Virus record (IMG/VR): IMGVR_UViG_3300005461_000009
Length of the DNA: 64,000 nt
DNA from: an uncultured virus (IMG/VR IMGVR_UViG_3300005461_000009)
Lineage: Duplodnaviria; Heunggongvirae; Uroviricota; Caudoviricetes
Reading direction: 5' to 3' (one strand)
Part shown: in pieces, positions 12,640 to 64,000 of the stretch
Numbering within the stretch: the first letter of the stretch is position 1
Layout: every line of letters starts with the position of its first letter
The notes under the pieces: model-generated
Databases searched by the model: none
Told to the model about the DNA's origin: nothing
What the model saw: only the letters and a program-made list of their open reading frames with translations
Made by a program: the position numbers and the translations under genes

Positions 12640-12747
12640 AAAATTTTTCTCCTTCCATAGTATATATTACAAAAATCATACCACAGAAGATTATTTCATA
12701 CAATAATTTAACTAGCTCAATAAAATAAGAATTTCAACAGCTTATCA

Positions 12748-12795
12748 TGCCAATATATAGTGTTTGCTTTATCCGCTATACGCTATATATTGTGT
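12748..12795. promoter_or_regulatory. Tandem NrdR-box-like pair
   Basis: CAATATATAGTGT (12751) and ACGCTATATATTGTGT (core 12783); cores 32 bp apart, matching acaCwAtATaTwGtgt. Confidence 0.6.
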
Positions 12796-12800
12796 ACATT

Positions 12801-13448
12801 TCAGTCTCTATGCCACCAGATATGTTGGTCAAAAATTTCTGCCTTTACAAAACCATCTTCATAATAATCATCGCCTTCTTCCTCAGCAAATTCCGAAGGT
12901 GTTGTAAATTTTTCAATACCATCAGGTTCAAGGATCACACATGCTTGTCCATCATCAATCCAATCAGTTATAATTGCTGGTTCGCTTCGCCACCAAACCT
13001 TTCTGCCAATCATTTTCTCTGCATATCCATATTCATTCAAGTCTAATGGATGCTCGTCTAAATGTTTTATTCTCCATTCAGCTTCATCAATGCCTCCTCT
13101 GCAAAAATAGAAGTTTTCTCCATTTCTTGTAATCATAGCACCGCCGCTTGTATAACATTCTGATTCATCCCACTTATTTCTTACATAATTATGTGGTTCA
13201 TATTTAATTCCCCAACATACTCCAAAGTCTTCACACTGAAATTCAATCAGATTTTCATATGTAGGACTCTCATCTCTTGGATACATCCATAAATCATTTT
13301 CTCCTCGTCTACCCCCGATTGTATGAACATACCCCTTAATACTCACAACCTGATATGGTTTCCCATAAAGCATTACATCCCACGGCATTTTTGACATTTT
13401 AAGTTCTGATATGTTTGTATCTTTTTTAATCAATTTTATAATTCCCAA
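12801..13448 (-). CDS. Hypothetical phage protein
   Basis: 215-aa ORF with AAGGAG SD. Confidence 0.7.
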   Translation of the reverse strand: MGIIKLIKKDTNISELKMSKMPWDVMLYGKPYQVVSIKGYVHTIGGRRGENDLWMYPRDESPTYENLIEFQCEDFGVCWGIKYEPHNYVRNKWDESECYTSGGAMITRNGENFYFCRGGIDEAEWRIKHLDEHPLDLNEYGYAEKMIGRKVWWRSEPAIITDWIDDGQACVILEPDGIEKFTTPSEFAEEEGDDYYEDGFVKAEIFDQHIWWHRD

Positions 13449-13481
13449 TTAGCTATTCTCCTTTTCAAAATTCATATATGT

Positions 13482-13814
13482 TTATATCATTTTATAAATA
13501 CCTTCCGCAATCTCTTTCATAACTGAATCAATCTTTTCTTTTGAAAGATTAGACTTCTCCAAAGCATTTAAAATAGTACATGGCAGTTCTGTCCATCTAT
13601 GATAATTTGCATTCTCTAATTCATCACTAAGAATCTCAGCATAATTTTCGGCAGTCCATTCGTCACTTTCTATAAATTTGAAATTCGGATCTTGAATATC
13701 AAATTCTTCCTTTATTTCTTCAATGGATTCATTGTACACATAATAATATTTTCCATCGTTTCCAACTTTCCAATACTTAAACATATATTCCTCCTTCAAT
13801 AAAATTTGGTTCAA
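13482..13814 (-). CDS. Hypothetical protein
   Basis: ORF; likely starts at the internal ATG after AAGGAGG. Confidence 0.65.
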   Translation of the reverse strand: MNQILLKEEYMFKYWKVGNDGKYYYVYNESIEEIKEEFDIQDPNFKFIESDEWTAENYAEILSDELENANYHRWTELPCTILNALEKSNLSKEKIDSVMKEIAEGIYKMI

Positions 13815-14026
13815 TCAATAACTTCTAAGCACTGTACTGGAATTTCACAACACAAATCTACTGTTGCGTACTCTTGTCCATCATCATTTTTCCATAAAGC
13901 GAATATTTCTTGTTCTGTATTTACAAATCTCTCGTGCATACTTTCGCAAGTGCCATTATCAAATGTTAATTTCTTTAATTCGTCTTTCAGATTATCTTTT
14001 ACAATTACCTTATCCCCAACTTTCAA
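13811..14026 (-). CDS. Hypothetical SH3-like small protein (MKVGDKV start)
   Basis: ORF with AGGAG SD. Confidence 0.65.
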   Translation of the reverse strand: MKVGDKVIVKDNLKDELKKLTFDNGTCESMHERFVNTEQEIFALWKNDDGQEYATVDLCCEIPVQCLEVID

Positions 14027-14075
14027 TCTATTTTCTCCTTTTCTTTATATTTTTGCCATGAAAGAACGCATTCAT

Positions 14076-14486
14076 TTACTCTATATCAGTTTCTAAAATA
14101 AAGTGACAAAACTCACCGATATGAGATGACAGTTCCGTTTCTAAGTCATGACCACCAATAGTAAAGTTATCAACATCTATTCCTGTAATTGTATATTCTG
14201 AGTAACCTGTTTGATGATATTCAGATTCTACTTTGCCACCATATAACTTCATATCAAACTGTTCCATTATTTCTTCAAGTGTCCCTTCAAAATCTGAATA
14301 CCATATTCTCAATCTACAATGTGGATGAACTGCACACATTTTACCAAGTCCATAATCCGACCATGTACCATTTAAAAATTTTGCAACTTCTTTCGCAATA
14401 ATATCACCCCAACTTATTCCTTTAACTGGTTGAATTGCTACTCCATCATCACAAACTAGCCAGCCTCTTAAATGTAATTCTGCCAT
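14076..14486 (-). CDS. Hypothetical protein
   Basis: ORF with AAAGGA SD, bracketed by N6 sites at 14059 and 14507. Confidence 0.7.
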   Translation of the reverse strand: MAELHLRGWLVCDDGVAIQPVKGISWGDIIAKEVAKFLNGTWSDYGLGKMCAVHPHCRLRIWYSDFEGTLEEIMEQFDMKLYGGKVESEYHQTGYSEYTITGIDVDNFTIGGHDLETELSSHIGEFCHFILETDIE

Positions 14487-14519
14487 TTTATAATCCTTTC
14501 TTACATTGAAATTTCGGTT

Positions 14520-15262: not shown

Positions 15263-15279
15263 ACCTTGAAATCGTGCTT

Positions 15280-15459
15280 TTAATACTTCTCTACAGGTCT
15301 ACCATTCTTTTCTTCTTTAAGTTTATCAATAAGATTATCTGTCATCGCCACTACACCATCGATCTAGTGTCCATATGTTTTACTTTCATCTTCTAATCCC
15401 CATTCTGTAGATTCTTTAATTGTTTCAAATGCTGTTTCATATATCTGATTCTTATCCAT
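15280..15459 (-). pseudogene. Small gene interrupted by an in-frame TAG
   Basis: AGGAG SD, MDKNQIYETAFETIKESTEWGLEDESKTYGH*IDGVVAMTDNLIDKLKEE...; TAG at 15364-15366; final TAA in the 15267 site. Confidence 0.55.
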
Positions 15460-16555: not shown

Positions 16556-16759
16556 GTTATTGCATCACCTCCCGCCACTTGAAACCAAGATTTCAATAGT
16601 AATAAAACCATTTCTTTAAACTATTTTCATAACATGCATCACACGGTTTACCAAAACTTTTACAATAACCAGTTTCTTTATCATAATCACTACATGGTTC
16701 TGGGTCTTTGCCATTAGAAGATTCTACTAATAAGTCATTTCTATCCATATCAAAATATC

Positions 16760-17182
16760 TTACATCCCTGTATTTTGATGACTCTCAATAGATGTACCAA
16801 ACCAACGAACCATTCTTAAAGGAATGTGACGGTTATTTCCATCTTCAAGTCTCATCCAGAGTAAATCTGATCCAAAACGTATCTCTGTTGCTCTGAAATC
16901 TTCTTTATATCCATCCCACCATCTCACTGCTACAGTATTTATTTTCTTATTTTCTTCCATTTGTTCTTCCTTATCCTCTCTGTCTTTTACATACATTGTT
17001 TCGCAAGTGCTTGTTAGCATTGAAGCAAGTGCCATTCCGTGAGCAACCGCACTCTTACATTCTGGTTTCCCAACAAAAACAGTGTTGCTAATCGTTTTAT
17101 CTAATTCATCAGAAGATTTATAATCTAATATCTTTTGCTGAAATTCTTCTACATTAATAACTCTTGTATAGTTATTATCCAT
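16760..17182 (-). CDS. Hypothetical protein
   Basis: ORF with AAGGAG SD. Confidence 0.7.
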   Translation of the reverse strand: MDNNYTRVINVEEFQQKILDYKSSDELDKTISNTVFVGKPECKSAVAHGMALASMLTSTCETMYVKDREDKEEQMEENKKINTVAVRWWDGYKEDFRATEIRFGSDLLWMRLEDGNNRHIPLRMVRWFGTSIESHQNTGM

Positions 17183-17213
17183 AATTTCTCCTTAAAATTA
17201 ACCTTTTATTGCC

Positions 17214-18759: not shown

Positions 18760-18890
18760 TTGAAACTCTGGTTCTATTGCCTTTTAAAAGACATTCTACA
18801 TAGGCATATGCGTATGTAACGGGCTAGAAAACCGCCTATCCGATATCCAAATTGGAATTTCGGAATACATTTTATATTCCGTGTGGAATA

Positions 18891-19202
18891 TTACTTTTTA
18901 ATATTCTTCAATCTTTTATGACTAAGAATATTCAACATATCTTCAGCACCTTGCAAATATGCCGATTCATTATCACAATTTTCGTATGGCTCATGTTTGT
19001 CAAACAATTCATCAACATATTCTTTTTCATCTTTAACATCTGTAGAAAGATGCCTAATTTTTTTCATACATGAATTACAGATGTCTAATTTGTTGAATAA
19101 CCTATTCCAGATCCTATAACCATTAACAAAACCATAAACTCTTATATCTTTCTTTAAAATATCACCACAAATATCACATTTTCTGTAATTTACTTTTGAC
19201 AT
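18891..19202 (-). CDS. Hypothetical Zn-finger protein
   Basis: CDICG...ICNSC; GGAGTG SD. Confidence 0.65.
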   Translation of the reverse strand: MSKVNYRKCDICGDILKKDIRVYGFVNGYRIWNRLFNKLDICNSCMKKIRHLSTDVKDEKEYVDELFDKHEPYENCDNESAYLQGAEDMLNILSHKRLKNIKK

Positions 19203-19215
19203 AATTCACTCCATC

Positions 19216-20391: not shown

Positions 20392-20446
20392 TATTATTTA
20401 GGAGTAAAGCGCACTTTTCTGTCATGACAAACCTCTTTGCCTCCCA
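20392..20446 (-). promoter_or_regulatory. Palindrome-bearing leader element (type A)
   Basis: GGAGG..GAGGTT-TGTCATGACA-..AAAGTGCGCTTT-ACTCCTAAATAA; shares blocks with 24504-24557. Confidence 0.6.
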
Positions 20447-20467
20447 TGTTTTTTTATTCTTTGTTCT

Positions 20468-20827: not shown

Positions 20828-20868
20828 TATTTCCTCCTTCCTCATCCAATAAAAGCAAAATTTCAAGA

Positions 20869-22881: not shown

Positions 22882-22926
22882 TTTATGACCTCATTTCTTT
22901 AAATTTTTCCCAATGAAAGAGTTGTT

Positions 22927-23169
22927 TTAACCGTTTGAGTTTTTACCATACAAACCAATAGCCTGTTCGTATGAAATACCATTATCCAATAAATAATGAT
23001 AACAATCTACACAAAAATCTAATTCTGATTCATCTCCAGGAAACGAGTGTAATATATCTTCGTCTGAAACTGTTTTTCCACATTTATCACATATCTCTTT
23101 CCATACCCACCAATTTCCATTACTATTCTCTGAACCATCATAATTAACTCTGTGTAGATTAACCTTCAT
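22927..23169 (-). CDS. Hypothetical Zn-finger protein
   Basis: CDKCG...FCVDC; ATG after AAGGAG. Confidence 0.6.
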   Translation of the reverse strand: MKVNLHRVNYDGSENSNGNWWVWKEICDKCGKTVSDEDILHSFPGDESELDFCVDCYHYLLDNGISYEQAIGLYGKNSNG

Positions 23170-23201
23170 TACTTGTTTCTCCTTCCTTTGAAATGAAAAA
23201 T

Positions 23202-23420
23202 TTATCCTAATGCTTGAAACTTTGTATATTCTAAAATCTTCCAATTATCAGGTGTCATATTTTCGATTCCACAGCAATCACTTTGGTCTACAAAAAATGG
23301 ACAATTACCACAATTTCCTTTCTCATTAAGGTTGTCCTTGCAAACCTGCTTAATAATTTTTAATGAAGTAATAATACTTTTACCATTAATTTCTACACCA
23401 TCTATTTCCCTCTTATCCAT
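23202..23420 (-). CDS. Hypothetical Cys-rich protein
   Basis: GGAGGT SD; C..CPF motif. Confidence 0.65.
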   Translation of the reverse strand: MDKREIDGVEINGKSIITSLKIIKQVCKDNLNEKGNCGNCPFFVDQSDCCGIENMTPDNWKILEYTKFQALG

Positions 23421-23592: not shown

Positions 23593-23621
23593 TGAAACCG
23601 ATGTTTTAAGTCTATATGTAT

Positions 23622-25756: not shown

Positions 25757-25890
25757 ATAGTTTGCTGAATTGCTGATTTTTATTAACATTTGCAACTGCC
25801 AATAAAAATATAATTTCTTTTGGTTACTATCTTTTACATTCTATACAGATGATAATTTTACCGATGAAATTGGCTTTTCAAGGAATATTT

Positions 25891-31056: not shown

Positions 31057-31101
31057 TATCTATCACCTCTTTTTCTGCCTTAAAATCTCGATTTCATTTC
31101 T

Positions 31102-37053: not shown

Positions 37054-37255
37054 TTTTGTTCACCATTACTTAGTAGCTGCGCAGCTTTCTTCACCAGTGA
37101 ACATTCGTATCCTTTCTGTATTTATATTTTTGCCATCTATGGCAATAAAAGATTTAATTCATCGGGTAAAATACCCATTTATGTATCAAAAAAATTCTGA
37201 TACAACGGCTGAGAACCACAACCACTATCCTATCGTTTTACTCTTTAGGAATACT

Positions 37256-38446: not shown

Positions 38447-38479
38447 ATTACCACCTCACTTTTACTTGAAACCTTCGTT

Positions 38480-38770
38480 TCATCCAATATAAATTTCTTC
38501 CACATTTTCAATAACATATTTGGGTATTTTATTCTCATCAATAGAGATAAACTGACCACACACAGGACAAATAATTCCATAATCTGTTCCACTATAATCT
38601 GGATACTTGCTCCACCTATGTTTCTTTATATCATCTGAATCAATTTCAAGTTCACTTCCACAAAAATCTTCTTTCTTTCCATATGCAAATCCATATTCAT
38701 CTACGACTCTTTTACATGTTATTTTCATAGGAAATGTCCCAGAAAAATTATTCTCTTTTAATACTTTCAT
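38480..38770 (-). CDS. Hypothetical Zn-ribbon protein
   Basis: C...CGS...CPVCG; bracketed by N6 sites. Confidence 0.65.
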   Translation of the reverse strand: MKVLKENNFSGTFPMKITCKRVVDEYGFAYGKKEDFCGSELEIDSDDIKKHRWSKYPDYSGTDYGIICPVCGQFISIDENKIPKYVIENVEEIYIG

Positions 38771-38808
38771 CTTTTCGCCTTTCTCATCAATTGAAACGGA
38801 AATTTTAT

Positions 38809-39246: not shown

Positions 39247-39280
39247 ATGTTCTATTTCTCCTTTCTTTGAAACTCGTGTT

Positions 39281-39514
39281 TCATTTCCTTTTAAGTTTCT
39301 TATATAAATTATCCCAAAATATCGTCCATACTGCACACCAACAAACGAATAATCCCACATTAATATCTGCGGTTTCCCATTTATTAATATAATAGATTAC
39401 GATAAATGTTATGATGAAAATTAATCGAATTAAGTCTCTCAATTTATTACAATATCCAGTATATAAAGCAGGTGTTCCAGCTAATATAAATGAAAACAAA
39501 ATATATTCCATCAT
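39281..39514 (-). CDS. Small membrane protein
   Basis: Three hydrophobic segments; overlaps the RT stop. Confidence 0.6.
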   Translation of the reverse strand: MMEYILFSFILAGTPALYTGYCNKLRDLIRLIFIITFIVIYYINKWETADINVGLFVCWCAVWTIFWDNLYKKLKRK

Positions 39515-47721: not shown

Positions 47722-47923
47722 GCCTTTAAATAGTTACTTTATTTTCTCATAATATTTTTCAAGATCTTCTATCGCCATTTCATATCCCTGTAATAAAGCA
47801 TCTTCGTGTACAAAGTCATAATTATTTTGATGTGTCTTTTGTTCTTTCTTTAAATAATCTAATATCTCTTCTATATTTTGAACGCTAAGCAAATATAATT
47901 CCTCCACACTTAAAATTTCACTT

Positions 47924-48241
47924 TTATTTAATCAAATTCCCATACATATCAGTATAAACATAGCTATTACCTTCCTCTAAAGTTTCCCAATTTATCACTT
48001 CATATGTTTTAAAAATACCAACTATGCTTTCATGCATAGCATATATTTTGGAAACATAATTCCAACTATTTTCACCAACTTCATGTTCCACATATTCCTT
48101 TAATGATGAATATCGTTTTAAAAGAATTTCATATGGTTCAATTTTATCAATCTTATAATCTTTAAAAATAACAGAATACTTTATCATTTTACCTCCCATT
48201 GAAGCTGAACAACATCCAAATCCTACATAAAATATTTGCAC
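47924..48241 (-). CDS. Hypothetical protein
   Basis: Likely ATG after GGAGGT at about 48187. Confidence 0.55.
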   Translation of the reverse strand: MQIFYVGFGCCSASMGGKMIKYSVIFKDYKIDKIEPYEILLKRYSSLKEYVEHEVGENSWNYVSKIYAMHESIVGIFKTYEVINWETLEEGNSYVYTDMYGNLIK

Positions 48242-49522: not shown

Positions 49523-49565
49523 AATATTATCCCTACCTATACCACAAAACTAGAATTTCAATGCT

Positions 49566-49856: not shown

Positions 49857-50057
49857 TGCTAAAAATCACCAAAAACATCTTGATCTCCGTCACACCATTG
49901 ATATTCTTTTCCCTTATACTTTTCTTCTAAAAACTTCTCAATTTCATCATCTGAAATATTTCCTGGCAATTCAATAATATGTTTAATCGCAACTTGAATT
50001 ACTCTTTTCCCATTTTTATTAAACATTCAAAACCTCCACTTAGAAACAGCATTTCAT

Positions 50058-50291: not shown

Positions 50292-50508
50292 TTTATCCTC
50301 CTATTGAAAGCAACATTCTATTGGCATTTTTAATCCCATTGACGAATATCAATAAGATCGTCTTTTTCTGACCACATAACTTCCTTACCATCAGCTATTT
50401 TATTGATTTTATTATCGATTTCATGATCGCTCATATCATCTGGAACTTCTATTGAATCAACTACAGCATACCAAATTGTTTTCATGTTATTAACCTCCAA
50501 TATTATAA

Positions 50509-50945: not shown

Positions 50946-51314
50946 TTAATATGGATTCCTATTTCTATATCTCTTGCCACGAAAGGGAATAATATTAATT
51001 GCTTCAAATCCATACTCCTCCAAATCCTGATTACTCGTTTCTATGTCTTGTATTAAATCCAATGGAATTGCAATAACTTTATGTCCTTTTTTAAAACCTT
51101 CATCTTCTATCCTTCCACATCCCATTATGATTTTATTATCAATTATATCTCCTGGCACACAATCCTTTTCACATTCCATCAAATAATCTTCAAGATGTCT
51201 TTCTATCTCTAATTGTGTTATGTTTCTAGTTTCATATATAATTGCGTATGGTTCCATCTGTTTACCTCCAATTTTTTGCCATGAAAACCGGATTTCAAGA
51301 CTATCATTTACCAA
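50946..51314 (-). CDS. Hypothetical protein
   Basis: Likely ATG after GGAGGT at about 51257. Confidence 0.6.
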   Translation of the reverse strand: MVNDSLEIRFSWQKIGGKQMEPYAIIYETRNITQLEIERHLEDYLMECEKDCVPGDIIDNKIIMGCGRIEDEGFKKGHKVIAIPLDLIQDIETSNQDLEEYGFEAINIIPFRGKRYRNRNPY

Positions 51315-52732: not shown

Positions 52733-52754
52733 ACTACTAAATAAAATCAGACAT

Positions 52755-53105
52755 TCATCGTGTCATAACTTCTTTCCAATCAACCTGTCCCATAACACTA
52801 TTACTAAATAATTCTAACTCTTCCTTCTGAGCACAACTATCAGATTCACAATACTTATCTACGTCATCAAAATAATCATCACCTGTTTCTAAATACCAAT
52901 CATTCCACTCGCCTTCCAATTCGTCAAACATCTGCAAACCACCAACATTACAATAATCTGGCTTAACTCTATTTTGATACTGAAACGCATCATAAGCTGC
53001 CAATACATCTATCATCTTTTTACCTTCTTCTACACTATTAACTGGTATATAGAAAGTCTCCTTTATTCCCACTTGCGGAATCCACCACACTCTTAATTTA
53101 CTCAT
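52755..53105 (-). CDS. Protein resembling the P22 gp17 / 'superinfection exclusion' family
   Basis: KLRVWWIPQV...F..PV.SVEEG....DVLA.YD.FQ..NR.KPDY.N.GGL. Confidence 0.55.
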   Translation of the reverse strand: MSKLRVWWIPQVGIKETFYIPVNSVEEGKKMIDVLAAYDAFQYQNRVKPDYCNVGGLQMFDELEGEWNDWYLETGDDYFDDVDKYCESDSCAQKEELELFSNSVMGQVDWKEVMTR

Positions 53106-53142
53106 AGTTTTAATCCTCCAATAAAATCAAGTATTCAACTGC

Positions 53143-53838: not shown

Positions 53839-54130
53839 AATATTTCCTCCGTTCCAATAAAATCAATCATTCATTTCCATTTTCTTGCGTTTCTCATTCC
53901 AATACTTATTTGCTTCTTCGGAACCTCTAATATACAATGTTGTATATATCCCTTTTCAGAAACAGCCAGGACACAAGCAACCATGATACGCCATAATATC
54001 TCTTATAGAATACATATTGTGTCCACAATCTGTAAAGAAAAATGTTCCATCTCCATGCTTTTCTGGTGTTGTTTGATATGTTGCAATATTCATCTATGTT
54101 TCACCCACTTCCCATTATACCATACATTTT

Positions 54131-55810: not shown

Positions 55811-55839
55811 ACTATGTATCACAAGTTGAAACGATGATT

Positions 55840-56403
55840 TCAAGTCTGTTTTAAAATTCTTCTCATTACTATTAAAAATCTATTTTTCTGTTTCAATCGC
55901 CTTATGTAATATAATTTTTTCCATAAGTCATCATCATATGATTTCTTCATTTGATATAAGATAATTTCCGTTAATTTCTTCATTAAATCTTCTGGTAAAA
56001 TATCCTGTTTAATAAGATTACATACGCTACAGGCAACTTGAAGATTATCCATTGCATTAGTTCCACCTTTTGCTAAAGGAACAATATGATCGACTGTAAA
56101 ACTGTCATATGGAATAAATTTTCCGCATATTGCACATCTCCCTTTACCCTTATTATAAATTTTAATTCTTTCCTCTGACGAAAATTGTTTGCGCTTAATT
56201 TTATGAATATCTCCTACCTGTTGCATGGTTTCCATATCAACAATCTTATAGTCTTTCAATTTCTTTGTCGCTTTATTTAGCATAGCTCTGGCACTACCTT
56301 GTGTTTCAAACCTTGTTGCCAAATTTAGGTTTTGTGTTTTACATATTGTATGTTTGCCATCCAGATAGCAATAATAAGCGTCTTTTTGCAAAATATATGC
56401 CAT
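55840..56403 (-). CDS. HNH endonuclease
   Basis: CAICG, TVDHIVPLAKGGTN..DNLQ.AC..CN..K; ATG after GGAGG. Confidence 0.88.
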   Translation of the reverse strand: MAYILQKDAYYCYLDGKHTICKTQNLNLATRFETQGSARAMLNKATKKLKDYKIVDMETMQQVGDIHKIKRKQFSSEERIKIYNKGKGRCAICGKFIPYDSFTVDHIVPLAKGGTNAMDNLQVACSVCNLIKQDILPEDLMKKLTEIILYQMKKSYDDDLWKKLYYIRRLKQKNRFLIVMRRILKQT

Positions 56404-56519: not shown

Positions 56520-57563
56520 TCAACTTGCTTCGGCCAAAGATTTCGTATTTCCAAAATACCTATCATAATCCTTTTTGATTTCCTCCACCCTCTTCATAAC
56601 AGCAGAATTCTTTCCAGTTCCTCTTCCGGCAGCGTCATTATATGCTTTAGAAGTTGTAGCAGATTTCTTTCCGCTAAAGAAATTTACAAACCATTCCATC
56701 ATTTGTTTGTCAGAATATCCGTCATTAAGCGACTCTGCAACAATCGGCACAATACTAATCATATGCGTCCTGGCATAAATCCTCTTTGCAATTTTCTTAT
56801 CCTCTATCATGGCATGTATATTGTAAATACGGTCGAATACTTCGCTAAGTAAGAATTCATCATCCTTTGTAATATCTGCCATTCTCATGTAAGGACGAAT
56901 CCATTTTGCATCTGTAGAAACTTCACTGTCATTTAAGATTGCATGTGCTTTGGCCACCATATCTTCATTCACATGTCCATCTAAAGCTGTCTGACTTAAA
57001 GCATCAGCAAACAACTTATGCTTCCCAAGATTGATAATCTGTTCCTTTGATTTTGCTTTTACACGGTTCATCGTAGCAGCGTTTAATGCCTGACCATTAT
57101 TCAGATTATAGAATGTATCCGCCTGTTCTTCCTGATTCGCATTGTCCGTATAGCAAATTGTGAATGAATACTCCTTAATAGCGTTCTGGAAACATTCAGG
57201 AAGATCACTAAACTTGTACCCGTTGATGTCAATTTCCTCTGTTTCGCTCTCATCATTTATAACTGTAAATTCTTCAAGTCCGCTCAATTCAAACTCATTA
57301 TTCAAGAATTTGATGATAGTTAATGTCCGCTGTTTCCCATCTTCGCCCTCATAAACATCTTCCACTTTATTGAAATACAGAGGAGGAACATGTCTATCCA
57401 ATATCAAAGAGCGAATCAAAGCAGATTTCTTGTCATTATCTTTCCACACATAACCCCTTTGAATATCAATGTTAAAATTCACTGTTCCATCTTCCACTAA
57501 TTCAACAAGTTTCCGTGCTGTCCACTCTGTTCTTCCACGATCCGCACCTTTAATTATCTTCAT
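56520..57563 (-). CDS. DUF262/ParB-like domain protein
   Basis: IQRGYVW, PPLY, DGKQR, F..LNNG. Confidence 0.82.
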   Translation of the reverse strand: MKIIKGADRGRTEWTARKLVELVEDGTVNFNIDIQRGYVWKDNDKKSALIRSLILDRHVPPLYFNKVEDVYEGEDGKQRTLTIIKFLNNEFELSGLEEFTVINDESETEEIDINGYKFSDLPECFQNAIKEYSFTICYTDNANQEEQADTFYNLNNGQALNAATMNRVKAKSKEQIINLGKHKLFADALSQTALDGHVNEDMVAKAHAILNDSEVSTDAKWIRPYMRMADITKDDEFLLSEVFDRIYNIHAMIEDKKIAKRIYARTHMISIVPIVAESLNDGYSDKQMMEWFVNFFSGKKSATTSKAYNDAAGRGTGKNSAVMKRVEEIKKDYDRYFGNTKSLAEAS

Positions 57564-57586: not shown

Positions 57587-58516
57587 TCATTTTGAGATTT
57601 TAACTTTCTTCCCGTTCTCTACATATATCTTCTTCTCTATTCCAAGTCCATCACATACCAAATCTTCCACATAAAGAACACAAGATACTCTGTGGTCACG
57701 CTTCGGATATTTTGATTTTGCTTCTGCACTGAATAACGCAGGATCAATCTGCCTTAATTCCTTTGACAAATACCTATGTATTTCTTTCCTATCATTCGGA
57801 TGGGCAATCCAAACCTCCCTTAATGCCCTCATTACAAATGTCGCATATCCGTTTGTCTCTTTATTCCACCCAGCATTATCAACGATAGAAAAAATAAAGT
57901 CCAGACACTTTTCACCATGCACTTTCGCAATTGAATACGCATCTGTATAACTTCCAAGTATAGACTCTCCTCTATTTCCTTTAGTGGCTACAAATTTAAT
58001 TCCATATTTGTTTAAAAGTTTATCCAGAGAAACGGCAGCATTATCACCAATAATCACTCTTGAAAGATGCTTTTCAAGAGGCTTCACATTTTCCACTTCT
58101 GAATCCTGTCCGATAAAATACTCAGCTTCAAATTTCAGACGTTCATCCAAATCTTCAGGAGCATCCATGAGAATGATTGCATTAAGACGATCCATACCCT
58201 TCTCAGGAGCCACAAGACACCTCCCCTGACCATCTACAACCGCAAATCTGGATTCTTCTGGATGTGGTACTAAGATAATAGGTGTCAACTTTCGTTCATC
58301 CCATTTATTCTTTAACCGATTCAGATGCTTATGTGTTCTCATGCCCTGATACCTTGAATCCACAAAACAACAAGACAACGGAACAACTGCACTCCCTGTA
58401 ATTGCTCTCTGATTCTTACCTTTTCCAACAGTCATAAGTGGCTTGATATTTGCCACTATGTCATTGAACTGCTCCATCCTCCTTGTTTCCTCATTCATTG
58501 CCACAACTGTGCTCAT
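57587..58516 (-). CDS. ParB/Srx-like N-terminal domain protein
   Basis: VD.RYQ, F.VVDGQGR. Confidence 0.7.
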   Translation of the reverse strand: MSTVVAMNEETRRMEQFNDIVANIKPLMTVGKGKNQRAITGSAVVPLSCCFVDSRYQGMRTHKHLNRLKNKWDERKLTPIILVPHPEESRFAVVDGQGRCLVAPEKGMDRLNAIILMDAPEDLDERLKFEAEYFIGQDSEVENVKPLEKHLSRVIIGDNAAVSLDKLLNKYGIKFVATKGNRGESILGSYTDAYSIAKVHGEKCLDFIFSIVDNAGWNKETNGYATFVMRALREVWIAHPNDRKEIHRYLSKELRQIDPALFSAEAKSKYPKRDHRVSCVLYVEDLVCDGLGIEKKIYVENGKKVKISK

Positions 58517-58976: not shown

Positions 58977-59016
58977 TTATCCTCATCCCTTCCTTAAATA
59001 TCTAATTTCATCAATA

Positions 59017-59385: not shown

Positions 59386-59589
59386 TTTATTTAATCTTCA
59401 ATTCCAAACATATCTAACAGTCTAACTTTTAAACTATTAATAATTTCTTGTTCCCTTTCCTCAAACAATCTATTATAACCCATTTCTGATTCTATAGCTT
59501 GATTTATTATCTCTTTTATTTCTTTCAGATTATACGTTTCATACATATTATTCATTATAATTCCTCCATTTTTCCATGAAATAATCCTT

Positions 59590-60639
59590 CTATTCGCTAC
59601 TACTTTCTTCCAAAAACTCCTCAAAATTTTCTAACAATATTTTCCCTCTCAGTTCAACCGCCTCTTCCGTAACTGCAACACGACCTTTTGAATATTCATT
59701 ATACTTGTTGTTAATAGATACAAATCTAGTTCCTGTTCCAAAAAACGTAATCAACCATTTTTCGACTAATTCAATATTTATATTTTCATGAATAGTTTTT
59801 TTCAATATAGACATTAAAGAAATTAAATGAACTTTTCCTAAAATCTTTTTGACAACCTTAAACTGTTCGGCATTCTGCAAAATCTTATAAACTTTTAGAA
59901 AAGCATCATATATTCTATTAATTTCTTCTACCTGATCCTTTGTAATTACTGTTTCCCGCATTACAGGACGTATATTTTTTGTTTCAAATGATTTTTTAGT
60001 GCCATATAACAATATCCATGTCTTAATTACAACATCTTCATTTGCATATGCAGCCAATGACTTTTCTGATAAAGCAACATTAAACATTTCATGTTTTGCA
60101 AGTTGACTAATTTCTATTTTAGAGATTGCATTTGCTCTTGTCAATTCTATTGCCGTCAGCGATTTTCCATTATTTAATCTACGGAACATTTCTTCGGCGT
60201 CTTCCTGATCCATATTTTCATAATAATAAATAGTCAGGTTATATGTTTTAATAGTGTCCCTTATATCTTCCGGAAGTTGAGAAAATGTCAATCCATTAAA
60301 ATCATGCTCAATTCCATCCTCATCTTCAAAGGAGGGAGTATTTACAAGCGGAAATTCATCATTCAAAAATTTTATAACAGTCGTTGTTCTTTGTTTTCCA
60401 TCAAGGAAATCATATGTTTTATTTTTGATATCTTCAAATATACAATTACAATACATTGCAGGAATTGGAAACCCTCTCATCATACTGTCTATCAATATAC
60501 TCATGCGATTGTCTTTAGAAGTATTTTTCCACACAAATGATCTCTGTACTGCGTTATCAAAAGATAAATTGCCCTTATCATACATCACCTTTAAATCTCT
60601 TGCCATTCTAGGAAAAGACTTTCTCTCATAAGTCTTCAT
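59590..60639 (-). CDS. DUF262/ParB-like domain protein (similar to 56520-57563)
   Basis: VQRSFVW, IPAMY, LDGKQR, F.RLNNG. Confidence 0.82.
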   Translation of the reverse strand: MKTYERKSFPRMARDLKVMYDKGNLSFDNAVQRSFVWKNTSKDNRMSILIDSMMRGFPIPAMYCNCIFEDIKNKTYDFLDGKQRTTTVIKFLNDEFPLVNTPSFEDEDGIEHDFNGLTFSQLPEDIRDTIKTYNLTIYYYENMDQEDAEEMFRRLNNGKSLTAIELTRANAISKIEISQLAKHEMFNVALSEKSLAAYANEDVVIKTWILLYGTKKSFETKNIRPVMRETVITKDQVEEINRIYDAFLKVYKILQNAEQFKVVKKILGKVHLISLMSILKKTIHENINIELVEKWLITFFGTGTRFVSINNKYNEYSKGRVAVTEEAVELRGKILLENFEEFLEESSSE

Positions 60640-60998
60640 ATTAATTCCTCCTAATATTATCAATTAAGCTGTTTTATATTTTCGTTTTTTATCTCGATGT
60701 TCTAAATGTCGTTTTTTAGATGTACGTTTCCATTCATCTATATACATAACATGTGTTCCATGCTCTAATTTTACTACAACCATATGTTTTCCATAACATA
60801 TAAAATCTAATATAATTTCTTTATCCATATTCTAAACTCCTATATTATAACATTTTTCCATAATTAAAGCCACCAGATAATTCCAGTGGCATTTAACCTT
60901 TGTTTTAATCAAGTAACCAAGCAATAATTAAAAAGATTATTCCTCCAAGTATTGACAATTATAACACCTCCTCATATTGTTGTCTTAAAATGCGAATT

Positions 60999-61253
60999 TT
61001 AAAGATAATCTAATAATTCACTTGCTAAATTTACTTTTCCTTGTGTAATTCCAACAAGTGCAGCATTTAACATATTCCTACTTGCTTGTTCACTTTCTTT
61101 TGCTCTTTCAAAAATTGAATTTTGATATTCTTTTTCAATCTTGCTAAGTCTATTATTTTCTTTTCTTAAATACCTGTTCTCTCTAACAATATCTGCCATT
61201 GTTAAAATTATGTCTTCTACCTCATATCTTTCCATGTCTTTTCCTCCAATCAC
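60999..61253 (-). CDS. Hypothetical coiled-coil protein
   Basis: GGAGG SD. Confidence 0.55.
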   Translation of the reverse strand: MIGGKDMERYEVEDIILTMADIVRENRYLRKENNRLSKIEKEYQNSIFERAKESEQASRNMLNAALVGITQGKVNLASELLDYL

Positions 61254-61313
61254 TCATTCTATTATTTAACTTCCGACACAAACAATTCTTTATTATATTT
61301 GTAATCTTCTCCG

Positions 61314-61559
61314 TCACTTAGATCTATTATATCTATAATAACTTCCAAACCACACATGGTTAGGTTTCAATATCGTTCCAATATTCTCTTTTACTTGACC
61401 ACTATCTTCAAATCCTCTTTTTTTCATACGTTGTGAATGTCCATTCTTTTCTTCTTCATTCCTATAATGATACTGTTCAATTTCTTCCACAAAAGTAGTA
61501 CAACTTCCATTTTCTTCATATTGATATGACTTTGTTATTATTTCTTTTACCAATACCAT
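61314..61559 (-). CDS. Hypothetical protein
   Basis: GGAGGG SD. Confidence 0.6.
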   Translation of the reverse strand: MVLVKEIITKSYQYEENGSCTTFVEEIEQYHYRNEEEKNGHSQRMKKRGFEDSGQVKENIGTILKPNHVWFGSYYRYNRSK

Positions 61560-61608
61560 TTATTCCCTCCAATTCTGTCTTGAAATACGAGATTCATTGT
61601 TCTAATTT

Positions 61609-61929
61609 CTATAAATATAATCCGATATCTTCAGAATATTTTAAATTGGCATTTTTTATATTGCTATAATATTTTGAAATATCAACTGATTCTCTGTCTT
61701 CCTCAACTTTATATTTTTCCAGTACATTCCAATAGGATAAATCCTCTATGCAATACACTTCATACTCAGGTGTATCCCACCAACAAAATCCAGACACTTG
61801 ACTACCAACAACTGGATGATAAACATGGGCAACTTTAGTATGTCCATGCATAGAATACGACACTAAATTTCCAATATCTAAAACTTTATTGTCTCCTTTC
61901 CTAGTCACAACATAACACGCCATACACAT
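61609..61929 (-). CDS. Hypothetical protein
   Basis: GGAAGG SD; bracketed by N6 sites 61581 and 61945. Confidence 0.6.
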   Translation of the reverse strand: MCMACYVVTRKGDNKVLDIGNLVSYSMHGHTKVAHVYHPVVGSQVSGFCWWDTPEYEVYCIEDLSYWNVLEKYKVEEDRESVDISKYYSNIKNANLKYSEDIGLYL

Positions 61930-62207
61930 ATACCTTCCTTTCGATGAAATTCCGATTTCATTGTTATTTTCTGTTCCAATTTCTGATTATACTTGTCACA
62001 TAATTAAGTTCCGTTTTCGATAGTTTATATTCTTCTTCCACTTCATTCCAATCTATACGTCCTAATCCTGAAAAATAAACTTTTTTAGCAATTTCCGTTA
62101 ATCTCTTATTCTTCATATTGTCCTCCATTCATTTTCGATAAAATCCTGATTTCCAGTCTTTAATCAACTAACTCAAACCCAAAGTGGTAAAATCTAGTGT
62201 CATGCTT

Positions 62208-62837
62208 TTAGGAATTTCCCTCTTTATCATTTATTAATTCTTTATCATTTATTAATTTAATAAGTAACTTGGCTTGTATCTGAAGTTCAGGCTCTTGTAT
62301 ACGTGGGATTAAAATTTCTGAAATAAATATAAAAGCATTACCATAATACCTTTTACACAAATCTCTAGCATTACATGCCTCAAGACTGTAATCATTATCA
62401 TTATAAAATTTTACAAGATTACTTGCGTAATTACGGGACATATCAAGGACATTATTCCAAAGCAATCTACATTTCGAACAATCATTTTCGCAATGTTTGC
62501 AAGCATTTTCTAACTTCTTCACAACATTTGCATGAAACAAAATTGATGAAAGATGCATTCCCAACATCGCATGAAATGAAGAATGGAAATTTGAATATTT
62601 CTTGTGATATTTAATCTGTAGATTCTCCTCAACTCCTGAAAACATGAATTGAGCAATTCCCTCCTCACAGGAGGAATTATTTAAGTTTACATGGCATTCT
62701 CTATGATTTCCATCCCAATAGTAATTACTGCATCTTGTACATTTCCCATATCCAATAATAAAGTTTACAAAATCACGCGCATCTGCACTTTTAAGTTTTT
62801 CTAAGAATATTTCTCTATTAGTCATAACAATCACCAA
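62208..62837 (-). CDS. Hypothetical Cys-rich protein
   Basis: GGAGG SD; several CxxC motifs. Confidence 0.6.
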   Translation of the reverse strand: MVIVMTNREIFLEKLKSADARDFVNFIIGYGKCTRCSNYYWDGNHRECHVNLNNSSCEEGIAQFMFSGVEENLQIKYHKKYSNFHSSFHAMLGMHLSSILFHANVVKKLENACKHCENDCSKCRLLWNNVLDMSRNYASNLVKFYNDNDYSLEACNARDLCKRYYGNAFIFISEILIPRIQEPELQIQAKLLIKLINDKELINDKEGNS

Positions 62838-62841
62838 CCTC

Positions 62842-63090
62842 CTAAATTTCCCATCTTTTTAATATTGCATAGCCTAATAACCTTCTATACATCCTGGCTT
62901 TTGTCATCCCATTAAATGCTCTATTTACTGGATGTGTTACGGATTCATATGGAAACAGCGCAAGCATAACTTCCCTTAAGGTTTTTCTTGTGTACATATT
63001 TAAAAAATTAGGATCTTCTATTTCCTTTTTAATCCTTTTTTCCATTTCCAACTGTTTTTTTCTTAATTCATCATTAACAACATTTTTCAT
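62842..63090 (-). CDS. Hypothetical protein
   Basis: AGGAG SD. Confidence 0.55.
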   Translation of the reverse strand: MKNVVNDELRKKQLEMEKRIKKEIEDPNFLNMYTRKTLREVMLALFPYESVTHPVNRAFNGMTKARMYRRLLGYAILKRWEI

Positions 63091-64000
63091 TTTTTATTCT
63101 CCTACCACATGCCTAATTTTTATCGACTAAACATAGATAAACCAAATTTTGTAGCCAGTGCTGCCATTGTAAGCAAACGTATATCAGTTTCATTTTTATT
63201 AATAATTCCAAGTTTTTTCAAAAATTCAACGCACTCATCTTTAGAACCACTAAAAATAACTTTATCTTCTTTTTCAATTTCTATCATTGTCTTTACCTCT
63301 CCTTTATTAGCAAATTATAATATTCCATGCTCAATTTCAAATTTTACTAGGTTTTCTACAGCTTCATCATATTCCCTTTCTGTTTCTAAATTTTTACGAT
63401 TAAAAATTATATAACCAGCCATTCTGGCTTTTTCTTTCAGATCTTCCCATATTATTTCTTCATTTTTTGTCATATTTTTTATCTCCTTTATGCAATATTA
63501 ATAATTTCCATTGTAAATTTCTTCATTATATACTTTTTGTGCATCATTTTTTATAAAAATAAAAGCATCGTTTTCACTTGCAAATGTATCATAACTTACA
63601 ATTTTCTTTTCGTGTATTGCGTAACAAATAACAATCTTCATTTTTATTCTCCTTTTAATTTAAAATCATTTTAACCTTATTTCGTTGCCTTTTATGGTTC
63701 AAAATCAAATTCAGACAATCCATGCTGCCATATAATCCATATCGCACCATTTTTCTTTTGGATATGTATTATAATCTTTTTCTTCCGTCCATCGTCCTAA
63801 ATTATCAACCATAACCATACCTCCATATATCTAATAATTATTTCTGACAAATTTTATCTTGTTTCTGATCACTCTCAAAAATCCTCCATTCTATGTACTT
63901 GAAACCATTGTTTCAAGACTTATACAGTTCTGCTTCTCGTTTCCATGTTTCTTTATCTACAATCTGGTTAATTCTCCATTCAATAGACATTCCATTATTA

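What the first reader, a model, noticed from the sequence alone, without database searches (positions are those of the whole stretch)
12721..63915. Gene-cassette architecture: about 38 TRAAA-N6-WTTYA palindromes at gene junctions, with a tyrosine recombinase (candidate phage integron-like system)
SEEN: a 16-bp palindrome with 5-bp arms and a 6-nt core recurs at junction after junction in the accessory regions. Perfect TGAAA-N6-TTTCA copies are at 16580, 25865, 38467, 39268, 51282, 55827, 61945 and 63900; about 30 variants have TAAAA/TAGAA/CAAAA or TTTTA/ATTCA/TTCTA arms. All 38 cores I read are different. In 12 ORFs of the supplied track (stops at 14520, 22927, 23202, 34334, 38480, 39281, 42892, 47924, 52755, 55840, 59590, 60999) the stop codon is the first 3 nt of the arm, and the next gene's SD follows the site. 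I saw none at junctions of the replication operon (1-10.4 kb) or inside the DGR or retron. Sites bracket whole modules, e.g. the radical-SAM/TNSSS cluster between 20850 and 22914. A rough calculation assuming about 31% GC gives about 0.3 perfect copies expected in 64 kb, against 8 seen. KNOWN: tyrosine recombinases act on inverted arms around a 6-8 bp core, and Tn916/Tn1549-type integrases tolerate heterologous cores of about 6 nt. INFERENCE: these are recombination sites or scars of a cassette capture/shuffling system, possibly driven by the intact integrase at 54131-55126. Alternatives are operators of a phage regulator, ParB/DUF262 loading sites, or RNA-processing hairpins.
Basis: partly seen in the sequence, partly recalled or inferred. 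Interest (0 to 1): 0.92.

Follow-up and report, generated by a model that had tools for sequence, protein, structure and literature searches.

The report
Addressed junctions between swappable phage genes
A short mirror-image DNA signal with its own six-letter middle sits between the accessory genes of this gut-bacterial virus. Related viruses keep the same signals in the same order while the genes between them are replaced, so the signals mark the seams where gene cassettes are exchanged.

Summary
TGAAA-N6-TTTCA occurs 9 times in the window against 0.56 expected. The wider family TRAAA-N6-TTTYA gives 42 window sites, 38 of them in intergenic gaps just before a ribosome-binding site. All 12 stop-codon claims hold.

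The element is not a stable hairpin, a promoter or a terminator.

The 'N6' is a site-specific address. Of 35 strict sites in the genome, 25 (G006) and 24 (G001) have a same-core site in a relative, in collinear order; permutation gives about 1.7. Flanks and whole slots are often unrelated: 23 of 58 and 22 of 55 slots have no DNA or protein similarity. Arm position 2 travels with the upstream gene and position 15 with the downstream gene, so exchange falls within AAA-core-TTT. Two other lineages show the same pattern.

The cassette reading is therefore supported. The integron or Tn916-like mechanism, and the role of the integrase at 54131-55126, are not.

Best reading: position-specific crossover joints, a variant of the PeSL-type shuffling known from T4-like phages. 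The enzyme is unresolved. The scan noted the same kind of element before on another genome (e1-5870008).

The parts
63900..63915 (-). junction site (perfect arms)
   Evidence: 24.1 bits; same-core site in G006 with both flanks unrelated
62139..62154 (-). junction site (one arm mismatch)
   Evidence: 14.5 bits; same core in G001, G006, G007
61945..61960 (-). junction site (perfect arms)
   Evidence: 19.3 bits; same core in G001, G007, flanks unrelated
61581..61596 (-). junction site (one arm mismatch)
   Evidence: 15.4 bits; same core in G001, G006, G007, flanks unrelated
60986..61001 (-). junction site; stop codon of upstream gene = first 3 nt
   Evidence: 19.2 bits; same core in G001, G006, G007 with four different flank pairs
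59577..59592 (-). junction site (degenerate left arm); stop codon in arm
   Evidence: 10.9 bits
59374..59389 (-). junction site
   Evidence: 18.9 bits; same core in G006, G007
58995..59010 (-). junction site (one mismatch, under 10 bits)
   Evidence: homology to G001 starts 1 nt before it
58061..58076 (-). perfect palindrome inside gene 57587-58516 (arms extend to 9 bp)
   Evidence: conserved with its gene in G001 and G006; not a junction
55827..55842 (-). junction site; stop codon in arm
   Evidence: homology to G001 starts exactly at the site
53858..53873 (-). junction site (one mismatch)
   Evidence: 10.8 bits; G001 homology starts 3 nt before it
53122..53137 (-). junction site (one mismatch)
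   Evidence: 10.9 bits; G001 homology ends inside its right arm
52742..52757 (-). junction site (one mismatch, under 10 bits); stop codon in arm
51282..51297 (-). junction site (perfect arms)
   Evidence: G001 identical upstream through position 14, differs at position 15 and beyond
50305..50320 (-). junction site (degenerate left arm)
   Evidence: 12.3 bits; same core in G001, G006, G007
50041..50056 (-). junction site (degenerate right arm)
   Evidence: 11.2 bits
49840..49855 (-). junction site
   Evidence: 21.4 bits; G001 homology starts 3 nt before it, arm position 2 differs
49545..49560 (-). junction site (one mismatch)
   Evidence: 14.3 bits; G001 homology ends 7 nt after it
47911..47926 (-). 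junction site; stop codon in arm
   Evidence: 15.8 bits
42879..42894 (-). junction site; stop codon in arm; no same-core partner found
   Evidence: 17.7 bits
42072..42087 (-). site inside the conserved DGR block
   Evidence: both flanks conserved in G001 and G006
39268..39283 (-). junction site (perfect); stop codon in arm
   Evidence: G006 identical upstream, differs at position 15 and downstream
38792..38807 (-). junction site
   Evidence: in G001 this core is joined to the downstream flank of site 34321 (deletion or insertion between two sites)
38467..38482 (-). junction site (perfect); stop codon in arm
   Evidence: G006 identical downstream, differs at position 2 and upstream
37146..37161 (-). 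junction site (one mismatch)
   Evidence: 11.0 bits
34321..34336 (-). junction site; stop codon in arm
   Evidence: 24.8 bits; G001 homology starts inside the core
31081..31096 (-). junction site
   Evidence: 21.6 bits; same core in G001, G006, flanks unrelated
25865..25880 (-). junction site (perfect)
   Evidence: 21.0 bits
24616..24631 (-). junction site (one mismatch)
   Evidence: G001 homology starts 4 nt before it, arm position 2 differs
23593..23608 (-). junction site
   Evidence: 22.8 bits; G001 homology ends 1 nt after it
23189..23204 (-). junction site (one mismatch, under 10 bits); stop codon in arm
22914..22929 (-). junction site; stop codon in arm; upstream edge of the radical-SAM slot
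20850..20865 (-). junction site; downstream edge of the radical-SAM slot
   Evidence: a variant contig of run X15 leaves the window sequence at 20862
18761..18776 (-). junction site (degenerate arm)
   Evidence: 18.1 bits; same core in G001, G006, flanks unrelated
17193..17208 (-). junction site
   Evidence: 18.6 bits; both arm R/Y positions differ in G006
16580..16595 (-). junction site (perfect); stop codon in arm
   Evidence: same core in G001, G006, G002
15267..15282 (-). junction site
   Evidence: 23.3 bits
14507..14522 (-). junction site; stop codon in arm
   Evidence: 21.7 bits
14059..14074 (-). junction site (one mismatch)
   Evidence: 13.0 bits
12721..12736 (-). first junction site after the replication/STAND block
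   Evidence: 16.4 bits
   Evidence: homologues 85% in G001, 34% in G006, none found in G003, G005, G007
8075..9235 (-). 386-aa replication-module protein, weakly RadB/Sak4-like (possible phage annealase)
   Evidence: E 0.005, far below cut-off; E 0.008 to the annotated Sak4-like protein of phage Amboise; conserved in all relatives

Best explanation
The 16-bp element has this layout: the upstream gene's stop codon (or the base just after it), T-R-AAA, a six-letter core, TTT-Y-A, then the ribosome-binding site of the next gene. It is a conserved slot boundary in the accessory arms of a clade of 110-217-kb phages of gut Firmicutes.

Each boundary has its own core. Close relatives share the same series of cores in the same order. 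When two such genomes meet (co-infection, or a phage meeting a prophage), a crossover inside the 12-bp island AAA-core-TTT joins the left part of one genome to the right part of the other. Whole cassettes, each with its own stop codon and its own ribosome-binding site, are thereby swapped without disturbing gene order.

Because the cores differ from site to site, exchange is position-specific, and deletions between sites of one genome are rare.

Shown here: the sites exist, the cores are conserved and collinear, the cassettes are replaced, and breakpoints lie between arm positions 2 and 15.

Inferred: recombination happens at the sites. I think it is most likely carried out by general short-homology recombination (a phage annealase or the host machinery), possibly stimulated by an unidentified dimeric protein that reads the two arms.
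For: Enrichment and placement.

The arms and the exact N6 spacing are kept across the clade. TAAAA-N6-TTTTA occurs 21 times against 0.79 expected in G005 (PolIII 64% identical, 41% GC) and 28 against 4.6 in G003.

The cores are addresses. Of 35 G000 sites, 25 have a same-core partner in G006, with a collinear chain of 25. For G001 the figures are 24 and 23. Permutation gives a mean of 1.7 and a largest value of 5.

Whole slots are replaced. 23 of 58 slots against G006 and 22 of 55 against G001 have 0.00 blastn and 0.00 tblastn coverage and different lengths.

The identity island covers positions 0-16 only. Among strictly perfect site pairs, 32 of 59 have no detectable homology in either 60-nt flank.

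Breakpoints. Where only the upstream flank is homologous (n=14), arm position 2 is the same in 12 and position 15 in 6. Where only the downstream flank is homologous (n=17), position 2 is the same in 9 and position 15 in 16. Fisher p is 0.004 for position 15 and 0.07 for position 2.

Of 40 block ends against G001, 13 lie at a site by inspection.

Independent lineages repeat the pattern. G003 against G008: 26 of 38 sites in a chain (permutation 2.1). G005 against G010: 15 of 21 (permutation 0.8). Both include sites with unrelated flanks.

Sequence identity shifts more across sites (median 0.067, n=32) than across site-less gene starts (0.033, n=510; p=0.004).

Boundaries also occur at ribosome-binding sites and start codons without a motif. 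That fits a general short-homology process acting together with selection for intact genes.
Against: A 12-16-bp identity is very short for ordinary homologous recombination.

The conserved palindromic arms, the strict spacing, the GC-rich cores and the avoidance of similar cores are not needed for a passive linker. They hint at a dedicated protein.

A second count with lenient blast scoring put only 5 of 41 and 2 of 42 block ends at sites, against a random expectation of 0.8-0.9.

The control in the identity-shift test includes some false gene starts.

No recombination event was observed directly. The laid contigs were inconclusive.

G004 and phage Amboise have similar replication modules but no motif.
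Confidence: 0.55

Rival explanations
1. A dedicated site-specific exchange system. A recombinase or nuclease binds the two arms as a dimer and exchanges or cuts strands at the edges of the 6-bp core. It needs identical cores in the two partners, as engineered lox/FRT spacer variants do in recombinase-mediated cassette exchange. The array would then be a natural set of mutually incompatible sites.
For: The geometry is inverted arms around exactly 6 bp, kept across the clade while the cores drift. Breakpoints lie between arm positions 2 and 15. Near-identical cores (distance 0 or 1) are depleted within genomes: 3 against 7.2, 5 against 10.4, 4 against 9.1, 3 against 8.5 and 0 against 3.1 expected, and 6 of 1508 within genomes against 34 of 2863 between genomes. 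Identity shifts across sites even where both flanks are homologous. Every genome has 1-3 tyrosine recombinases.
Against: Only 5 (at most 7) arm bases are conserved, fewer than the 9-13 of simple recombinase sites (recalled). The cores are GC-richer than the genome (0.46 against 0.32), whereas known overlap regions are AT-rich (recalled). No recombinase is distributed together with the motif: the window's integrase has no detected homologue in G003, G005 or G007, and motif-less G004 and Amboise also have integrases. One junction in G001 joins two sites whose cores differ at 4 of 6 positions. Many mosaic boundaries lie elsewhere. The depletion tests are each only borderline (fractions 0.03-0.06).
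Confidence: 0.2
2. Purely regulatory DNA sites. They would be operators or roadblock sites of a dimeric phage or host regulator placed before many accessory genes, comparable in distribution to the stoperators of cluster A mycobacteriophages or to ParB/KorB-type loading sites. On this reading cassette swapping is unrelated to them.
For: Two 5-bp half-sites lie 11 bp centre to centre. There is no covariation between the arms: in G000 the position 2/15 combinations are GC 11, AT 5, AC 12 and GT 7, Fisher p=0.72. Other pairs sit at marginal expectation, as expected for half-sites read by sequence. The sites are region-specific. An HTH gene and several ParB-fold (DUF262) genes lie in the arm.
Against: This reading does not explain why the non-contacted core is kept, site by site and in order, while both neighbouring cassettes are replaced. 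Nor does it explain why arm positions 2 and 15 segregate with opposite flanks, or why similar cores are avoided. No regulator is distributed together with the motif. It is compatible with the best explanation if the regulatory role is the primary one and recombination a by-product.
Confidence: 0.12
3. An RNA element between cistrons: a hairpin or processing site (for example for the MazF-like endoribonuclease at 46731-47081, or a host RNase) that sets mRNA ends or controls translation of the next gene.
For: The site lies on the coding strand between the stop codon and the ribosome-binding site, with its end 10-24 nt before the start codon at many sites. A PemK/MazF-like gene is present in G000, G002, G003, G005, G006 and G007.
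Against: The arm hairpin is thermodynamically negligible. Mean MFE is -1.7 against -1.0 kcal/mol for shuffles, and 11 of 36 sites do not fold at all. A-C mismatches at arm positions 2/15 are as common as expected by chance (12 of 35). There is no covariation and no Rfam match. G001 has 43 strict sites, but no homologue of the MazF-like protein was detected in it.
Confidence: 0.05

Closest known systems
PeSL (promoter-early stem-loop) cassettes of T4-type phages (Arbiol et al. 2010, PMC2839356: abstract and section 13 read; Comeau et al. 2014, PMC4122927: abstract read)
   Same: A short repeated intergenic element placed between the stop codon of one gene and the Shine-Dalgarno sequence of the next. 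It is concentrated in the variable (hyperplastic) regions among ORFans. It marks the points where closely related phages differ by insertion, deletion and replacement of genes.
   Different: PeSLs are composite sigma-70 promoters plus stable terminator stem-loops. All copies share one sequence, so copies within a genome recombine and give mini-circles. Here there is no promoter and no stable stem-loop. The element is only 16 bp. Each copy has a unique core that is conserved in order among relatives, so exchange is position-specific.
Heterospecific lox/FRT spacer variants used for recombinase-mediated cassette exchange (engineered; recalled, no paper read)
   Same: Inverted arms around a short central region whose identity decides which sites can recombine. 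A cassette flanked by two different sites is swapped for another cassette flanked by the same two sites.
   Different: Those arms are 13 bp and the enzyme is known. Here only 5-7 arm bases are conserved, the cores are GC-rich, and no enzyme has been identified. Whether any site-specific enzyme acts here is untested.
Integrons (attC/attI with IntI; definition recalled)
   Same: An array of small, mostly single-gene cassettes, each bounded by a palindromic site, with a tyrosine recombinase gene nearby.
   Different: No IntI-type integrase (17 bits against a cut-off of 265). No 57-141-bp attC fold. There is no single insertion point. Cassettes here are tied to fixed, ordered slots rather than moving to one attI.
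Linker or short-homology model of phage mosaicism, and phage annealases that recombine short, diverged sequences (PMC5499656 and PMC8093625: abstract starts in the search listing only)
   Same: Mosaic joints at gene boundaries that arise at short shared sequences. The phage probably encodes its own annealase.
   Different: The joints here are a defined, palindromic, clade-wide motif with per-site addresses. They are not arbitrary conserved stretches.
Stoperators of cluster A mycobacteriophages (PMC9283540: abstract start in the search listing only)
   Same: Dozens of copies of a short site spread through intergenic gaps of a phage genome.
   Different: Stoperators are asymmetric, nearly identical in sequence and bound by a monomeric repressor. 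Here the sites are palindromic with variable cores, and no binding protein is known.

Membership tests
Integron | IntI-type integron integrase | tested here: not met
   NCBIfam TIGR02249 scores 17.1 bits against a cut-off of 265 for the protein at 54131-55126; the best hits are generic XerC/XerS/XerA-like and far below their cut-offs
Integron | attC sites: long imperfect palindromes that fold as single strands (definition recalled) | tested here: not met
   The sites are 16 bp; arm-hairpin energy ranges from -2.4 to +2.5 kcal/mol, and 11 of 36 do not fold
Integron | Cassettes enter at one attI next to the integrase | tested here: not met
   The sites are spread over about 60 kb on both sides of the integrase and keep a fixed order among relatives
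PeSL | Sigma-70-type promoter inside the element | tested here: not met
   No -10 element at the expected distance in the position profile; promoter-like hits are not above shuffles, 75 against 114.5 and 118 against 112.4
PeSL | Stable stem-loop acting as a terminator | tested here: not met
   Mean MFE -1.7 against -1.0 kcal/mol for shuffles
PeSL | Lies between stop codon and Shine-Dalgarno sequence in variable regions | tested here: met
PeSL | Replacement and indel breakpoints between relatives fall at the element | tested here: met
   weaker in the lenient recount
Tyrosine-recombinase core site (lox/FRT/dif type) | Inverted arms around a 6-8-bp central region | tested here: met
   5-bp arms, exactly 6 bp between them
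Tyrosine-recombinase core site (lox/FRT/dif type) | Arms long enough for specific binding (9-13 bp; recalled) | tested here: inconclusive
   Only 5 positions are near-invariant, with weak extension to 7
Tyrosine-recombinase core site (lox/FRT/dif type) | A cognate recombinase that occurs together with the sites | tested here: inconclusive
   1-3 recombinases in every genome, motif-less ones included; the window's integrase has no detected homologue in G003, G005 or G007
Tyrosine-recombinase core site (lox/FRT/dif type) | Binding, cleavage and strand exchange at the core edges | not testable with these tools
   Only indirect evidence: breakpoints lie between arm positions 2 and 15
Stoperator or operator array | Near-identical sites bound by the phage repressor | not testable with these tools
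   The sites are palindromic with unique cores; no co-distributed regulator was found
Structured RNA family | Conserved base pairing with covariation | tested here: not met

The most novel reading that the evidence does not exclude
The array is a natural, addressable cassette-exchange system. A dedicated protein reads the two arms and cuts or exchanges DNA at the six-letter address. Only sites with the same address in two co-resident genomes can be joined, and selection keeps the addresses within one genome mutually distinct. This would be the natural counterpart of heterospecific lox/FRT cassette exchange, or of ordered assembly by unique overhangs.
Probability: 0.2. Interest if true: 0.95.

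Novelty: new variant of a known kind. Interest (0 to 1): 0.8.

Why it matters
Phage genomes are mosaics, but how unrelated accessory genes come to be swapped so cleanly at gene borders is rarely visible.

Here the seams are explicit. A 16-bp motif has a per-slot address that relatives share in order, while the cargo between addresses turns over. That cargo includes ORFans, methylases, nuclease-like genes, toxin-antitoxin genes, and radical-SAM and reverse-transcriptase modules.

This gives a directly testable model for how large gut phages renew their accessory gene sets without breaking gene order or expression. It also offers a simple computational handle for finding slots and their alleles in metagenomes.

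If a dedicated enzyme exists, it would be a new kind of multi-site, address-dependent recombination tool.

Tried and rejected
1. RNA family search of the window: only a tRNA was found.

2. Promoter and terminator reading: rejected.

3. Hairpin reading: rejected.

4. Co-distribution of candidate proteins with the motif. The window's integrase, the sigma-like protein with its 480-aa neighbour, the MazF-like toxin, and the DUF262/DUF6551 proteins were tested. None fits.

5. Looking for cassette genes elsewhere so as to see which sites flank them. The 136-aa protein at 14076-14486 had no relative. The 145-aa protein at 38809-39246 found only L249, which is 100% identical to G000 over 3,435 nt and so is not independent.

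6. Population of 60 loci around PolIII in the G005 group. The sites and their cores are shared (for example 59, 57 and 46 of 60 loci). My ungapped breakpoint estimate was confounded by indels and is not used.

7. Public runs. The 10-kb stretch is held at 81-100% of sampled words in 14 runs, labelled mouse gut metagenome where a label is given. Laying the contigs of 4 runs showed variant contigs leaving the sequence at 20862 (inside a site), and at 31071/31073 and 17177 (8-16 nt from sites). Most of the 24 loose ends shown (166 more were not shown) are elsewhere, and contigs cannot show circles. I count this as no evidence either way.

8. Recount of block ends with lenient blast scoring: 5 of 41 and 2 of 42 at sites, much lower than the 13 of 40 by inspection.

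9. Nearest cultured phage, Clostridium phage Amboise (PolIII 53% aa): no motif, 1 and 0 matches against 1.3 and 1.2 expected. It is therefore not an experimental stand-in.

10. A scan of viral contigs for the extended 21-bp pattern returned scattered single hits in unrelated contigs and was uninformative.

11. Literature. Searches found PeSLs but no description of this motif or of ordered, per-site cores. The supplements of the PeSL papers were not opened.

Full report
WHAT IS THERE.
The window is the minus strand of bases 75376-139375 of a 159,091-bp virus record. The record has 32% GC, and nearly all genes of the window lie on its minus strand. Pfam and PHROG scans show:
- A replication operon: PolIII alpha, a RecJ-like protein, primase and a DnaB-like helicase.
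- A long accessory arm of small ORFans mixed with methylases, two reverse transcriptases, HNH and DUF262-type genes, toxin-antitoxin genes, a sigma-like factor and a tyrosine recombinase.

- TGAAA-N6-TTTCA occurs 9 times in the window against 0.56 expected (largest 3 in 100 shuffles).
- No copy has a spacer of 4, 5, 7 or 8.
- On the coding strand the consensus is (g)tcT-TRAAA-y-N4-r-TTTYA-Ag.
- A weight matrix finds 42 sites of 12 bits or more in the genome against 4.4 expected. The 25 training sites are included.
- The sites are concentrated at genome positions 67-127 kb and 143-152 kb.
- In the window I count 42 sites, 38 at junctions and 4 inside genes.
- In the accessory arm, 38 of 70 gaps of 25 nt or more hold a site and 0 of 35 shorter gaps do. 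The replication operon has none at its junctions. The structural arm has 5 in 40 gaps of 25 nt or more.

WHAT IT IS NOT.
- Not a base-paired element. The arm positions that vary (2 and 15) combine freely in G000: GC 11, AT 5, AC 12, GT 7, Fisher p=0.72. Every other candidate pair is complementary only as often as its marginals predict, in four genomes.
- Not a stable hairpin. As RNA the element folds at -1.7 kcal/mol on average against -1.0 for shuffles, and 11 of 36 sites do not fold.
- Rfam finds only a tRNA.
- Not a promoter. No -10 element follows the TTGAAA-like left arm, and sigma-70-type promoter hits are not above shuffles.

Two half-sites are thus read by sequence, 11 bp centre to centre. 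That points to a dimeric protein on duplex DNA, but I could not identify one.

CLADE-WIDE CONSERVATION.
PolIII relatives were found in 78 viral-contig loci. I took the whole records of nine of them.
- The same palindrome is the top-ranked one in G001 (18 against 1.7) and is enriched in G002 (7 against 0.95), where it ranks second.
- In more distant genomes the arms are TAAAA/TTTTA: G003 28 against 4.6, and G005 21 against 0.79 at 41% GC.
- There too it sits directly before the ribosome-binding site.
- G004 has no such motif. Nor does the nearest named phage, Clostridium phage Amboise, whose PolIII is 53% identical.

THE KEY RESULT: THE 'N6' IS AN ADDRESS.
- I matched G000 sites to sites in relatives by identical core. 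This pairs 25 of 35 strict sites with G006 in a collinear chain of 25, and 24 of 35 with G001 in a chain of 23. Permutation gives a mean of 1.7 and a largest value of 5.
- The 40-nt flanks on both sides are mostly at random identity.
- The identity island spans positions 0-16 only.
- Taking consecutive shared sites as slot borders, 23 of 58 slots against G006 and 22 of 55 against G001 have no blastn and no tblastn similarity, and they differ in length. Examples, as G000 / G006 / G001 lengths in nt:
  - window 20866-22913: 2048 / 1973 / 413
  - window 18777-20849: 2073 / 1625 / 1674
  - window 16596-17192: 597 / 1121 / 1517
  - window 14075-14506: 432 / 485 / 846
- Among strictly perfect site pairs in four genomes, 32 of 59 have no detectable homology in either 60-nt flank.
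- Of the 42 window sites, 40 have a same-core site in at least one of G001, G006, G007 or G002. Partners in that count were not restricted to the chain, so a few may be chance.
- The replication module of these genomes is 86-99% identical in protein. Most accessory genes of the window have no homologue at all in the relatives. The cassettes were therefore replaced; they did not diverge in place.
- Core sharing fades with distance: G007 7 (a partial record), G002 3, and G003, G004 and G005 at chance. The cores thus drift, and they are shared by descent within a lineage.

The pattern repeats in two other lineages. G003 against G008 gives 26 of 38 sites in a chain (permutation 2.1, largest 5). 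G005 against G010 gives 15 of 21 (permutation 0.8, largest 3). Both include sites with unrelated flanks.

WHERE THE EXCHANGE HAPPENS.
- Where only the upstream flank is homologous (14 pairs), arm position 2 agrees in 12 and position 15 in 6.
- Where only the downstream flank is homologous (17 pairs), position 2 agrees in 9 and position 15 in 16.
- Where neither flank is homologous (139 pairs), they agree in 72 and 71. Fisher p is 0.004 for position 15 and 0.07 for position 2.

Position 2 is the second letter of the upstream stop codon where the two overlap. The unit that moves is therefore right arm, ribosome-binding site, gene(s) and left arm, and the joint lies within AAA-core-TTT.

Printed alignments of 40 block ends between G000 and G001 show 13 at a site. 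Typically they fall at its outer edge, and three fall inside it. One junction in G001 carries the core of site 38792 fused to the downstream flank of site 34321. That is a deletion or insertion between two different sites, joined in a shared 8-nt stretch.

HINTS THAT THE SITES ARE ACTIVE RATHER THAN PASSIVE.
- The cores are GC-richer than the genome (0.46 against 0.32). They contain CG in 13 of 35 cases against 8% of genome 6-mers. They rarely begin with A or end with T.
- Near-identical cores (distance 0 or 1) are depleted within genomes: 3 against 7.2, 5 against 10.4, 4 against 9.1, 3 against 8.5 and 0 against 3.1. The fractions of permutations at or below the observed value are 0.03-0.06, and the first three genomes are not independent.
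- Pooled, the count is 6 of 1508 within genomes against 34 of 2863 between genomes (p=0.007). The between-genome value is inflated by a few orthologous sites.
- Where both flanks align, identity shifts more across sites (median 0.067, n=32) than across site-less SD+ATG positions (0.033, n=510; p=0.004). Some of those controls are not real gene starts.

RESULTS AGAINST, OR LIMITING.
- Mosaic boundaries also lie at ribosome-binding sites and start codons without a motif, and inside genes.
- A recount with lenient blast scoring put only 5 of 41 and 2 of 42 block ends at sites, against a random expectation of 0.8-0.9.
- No protein is distributed together with the motif. The integrase at 54131-55126 has homologues in G001 (85%), G006 (34%) and G002 (25%, half length), and none was found in G003, G004, G005 or G007.
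- Every genome tested has 1-3 tyrosine recombinases, motif-less G004 included, and none has a serine recombinase. Amboise has three annotated integrases and no motif.
- The window's integrase is generic Xer-like and is not an integron integrase.
- Laid public contigs were inconclusive.

ENZYMES AVAILABLE.
A 386-aa protein of the replication module is weakly RadB/Sak4-like (E 0.005; E 0.008 to the annotated Sak4-like annealase of Amboise). Amboise is also annotated with an exonuclease and a Holliday-junction resolvase. Phage annealases are reported to recombine short and diverged sequences and to generate mosaicism (PMC5499656 and PMC8093625; I saw only the abstract starts in the listing).

COMPARISON WITH WHAT IS KNOWN.
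The closest known kind is the PeSL of T4-type phages: intergenic elements between stop codon and Shine-Dalgarno sequence in hyperplastic regions that mediate modular shuffling (PMC2839356, abstract and section 13; PMC4122927, abstract).

This element works like a PeSL as a seam, but it fails the two defining PeSL features, the promoter and the terminator stem-loop. It also differs in having per-site cores kept in order, which makes exchange position-specific.

It is not an integron. It has the geometry of a tyrosine-recombinase core site, but with short arms and GC-rich cores. My searches found no description of this motif or of this architecture.

I saw that note. It is not independent evidence.

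VERDICT.
The cassette architecture is supported by comparative evidence in three lineages. The integron/Tn916/integrase mechanism is not supported.

Most likely (0.55) these are conserved, addressed crossover joints used by short-homology recombination, perhaps helped by an unknown arm-binding protein. A dedicated address-dependent exchange system remains possible (0.2).

Noticed in passing
window 27854-29517 (+ strand): A plus-strand block ending in a reverse transcriptase (28534-29517, PF00078) is skipped in a variant contig of public run X10. The joint is 27883>29506 with 9 other letters between, so this block is itself present or absent in the population.
   Followed up: partly
window 46731-47463: A PemK/MazF-like toxin gene (46731-47081; PF02452, E 1.8e-24) lies behind a 12-of-12 sigma-70-type promoter (47160-47132). 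It is divergent from a Cro/CI-type HTH gene (47236-47463). Homologues occur in 5 of 7 relatives.
   Followed up: partly
window 58057-58080: A perfect palindrome with 9-bp arms around a 6-bp core lies inside gene 57587-58516. It is conserved with the gene in G001 and G006. It is the only perfect motif copy that is not at a junction.
   Followed up: partly
window 43170-44612, 48989-49522, 56520-57563, 59590-60639: Four paralogous DUF262/GmrSD_N-type (ParB-fold) genes lie in one accessory arm. In G005 a DUF6551 protein, with 23-26% tblastn matches in G000, G001, G002, G006 and G007, ends about 10 nt before the first junction site.
   Followed up: partly
whole genome G000 against G001: The replication module is 86-98% identical in protein, while structural genes are only 21-47% identical or absent. 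This is module-level mosaicism on top of the cassette-level exchange.
   Followed up: partly
window 10732-12639: A STAND/NACHT-type NTPase gene between the replication operon and the first junction site has no homologue in any of 7 relatives.
   Followed up: no
G000 46508-47530 (outside the window) and relatives: Every genome of the clade carries 1-3 tyrosine recombinase genes, and Clostridium phage Amboise is annotated with three. That is unusual for phages. G000's second one is 62% identical to those of G002 and G003, and a degenerate junction-type site lies 9 nt after its stop codon.
   Followed up: partly
window 39511-42622: The DGR-type reverse transcriptase block is conserved at 91-99% protein identity in G001 and G006 and behaves as one multi-gene slot.
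   Followed up: no
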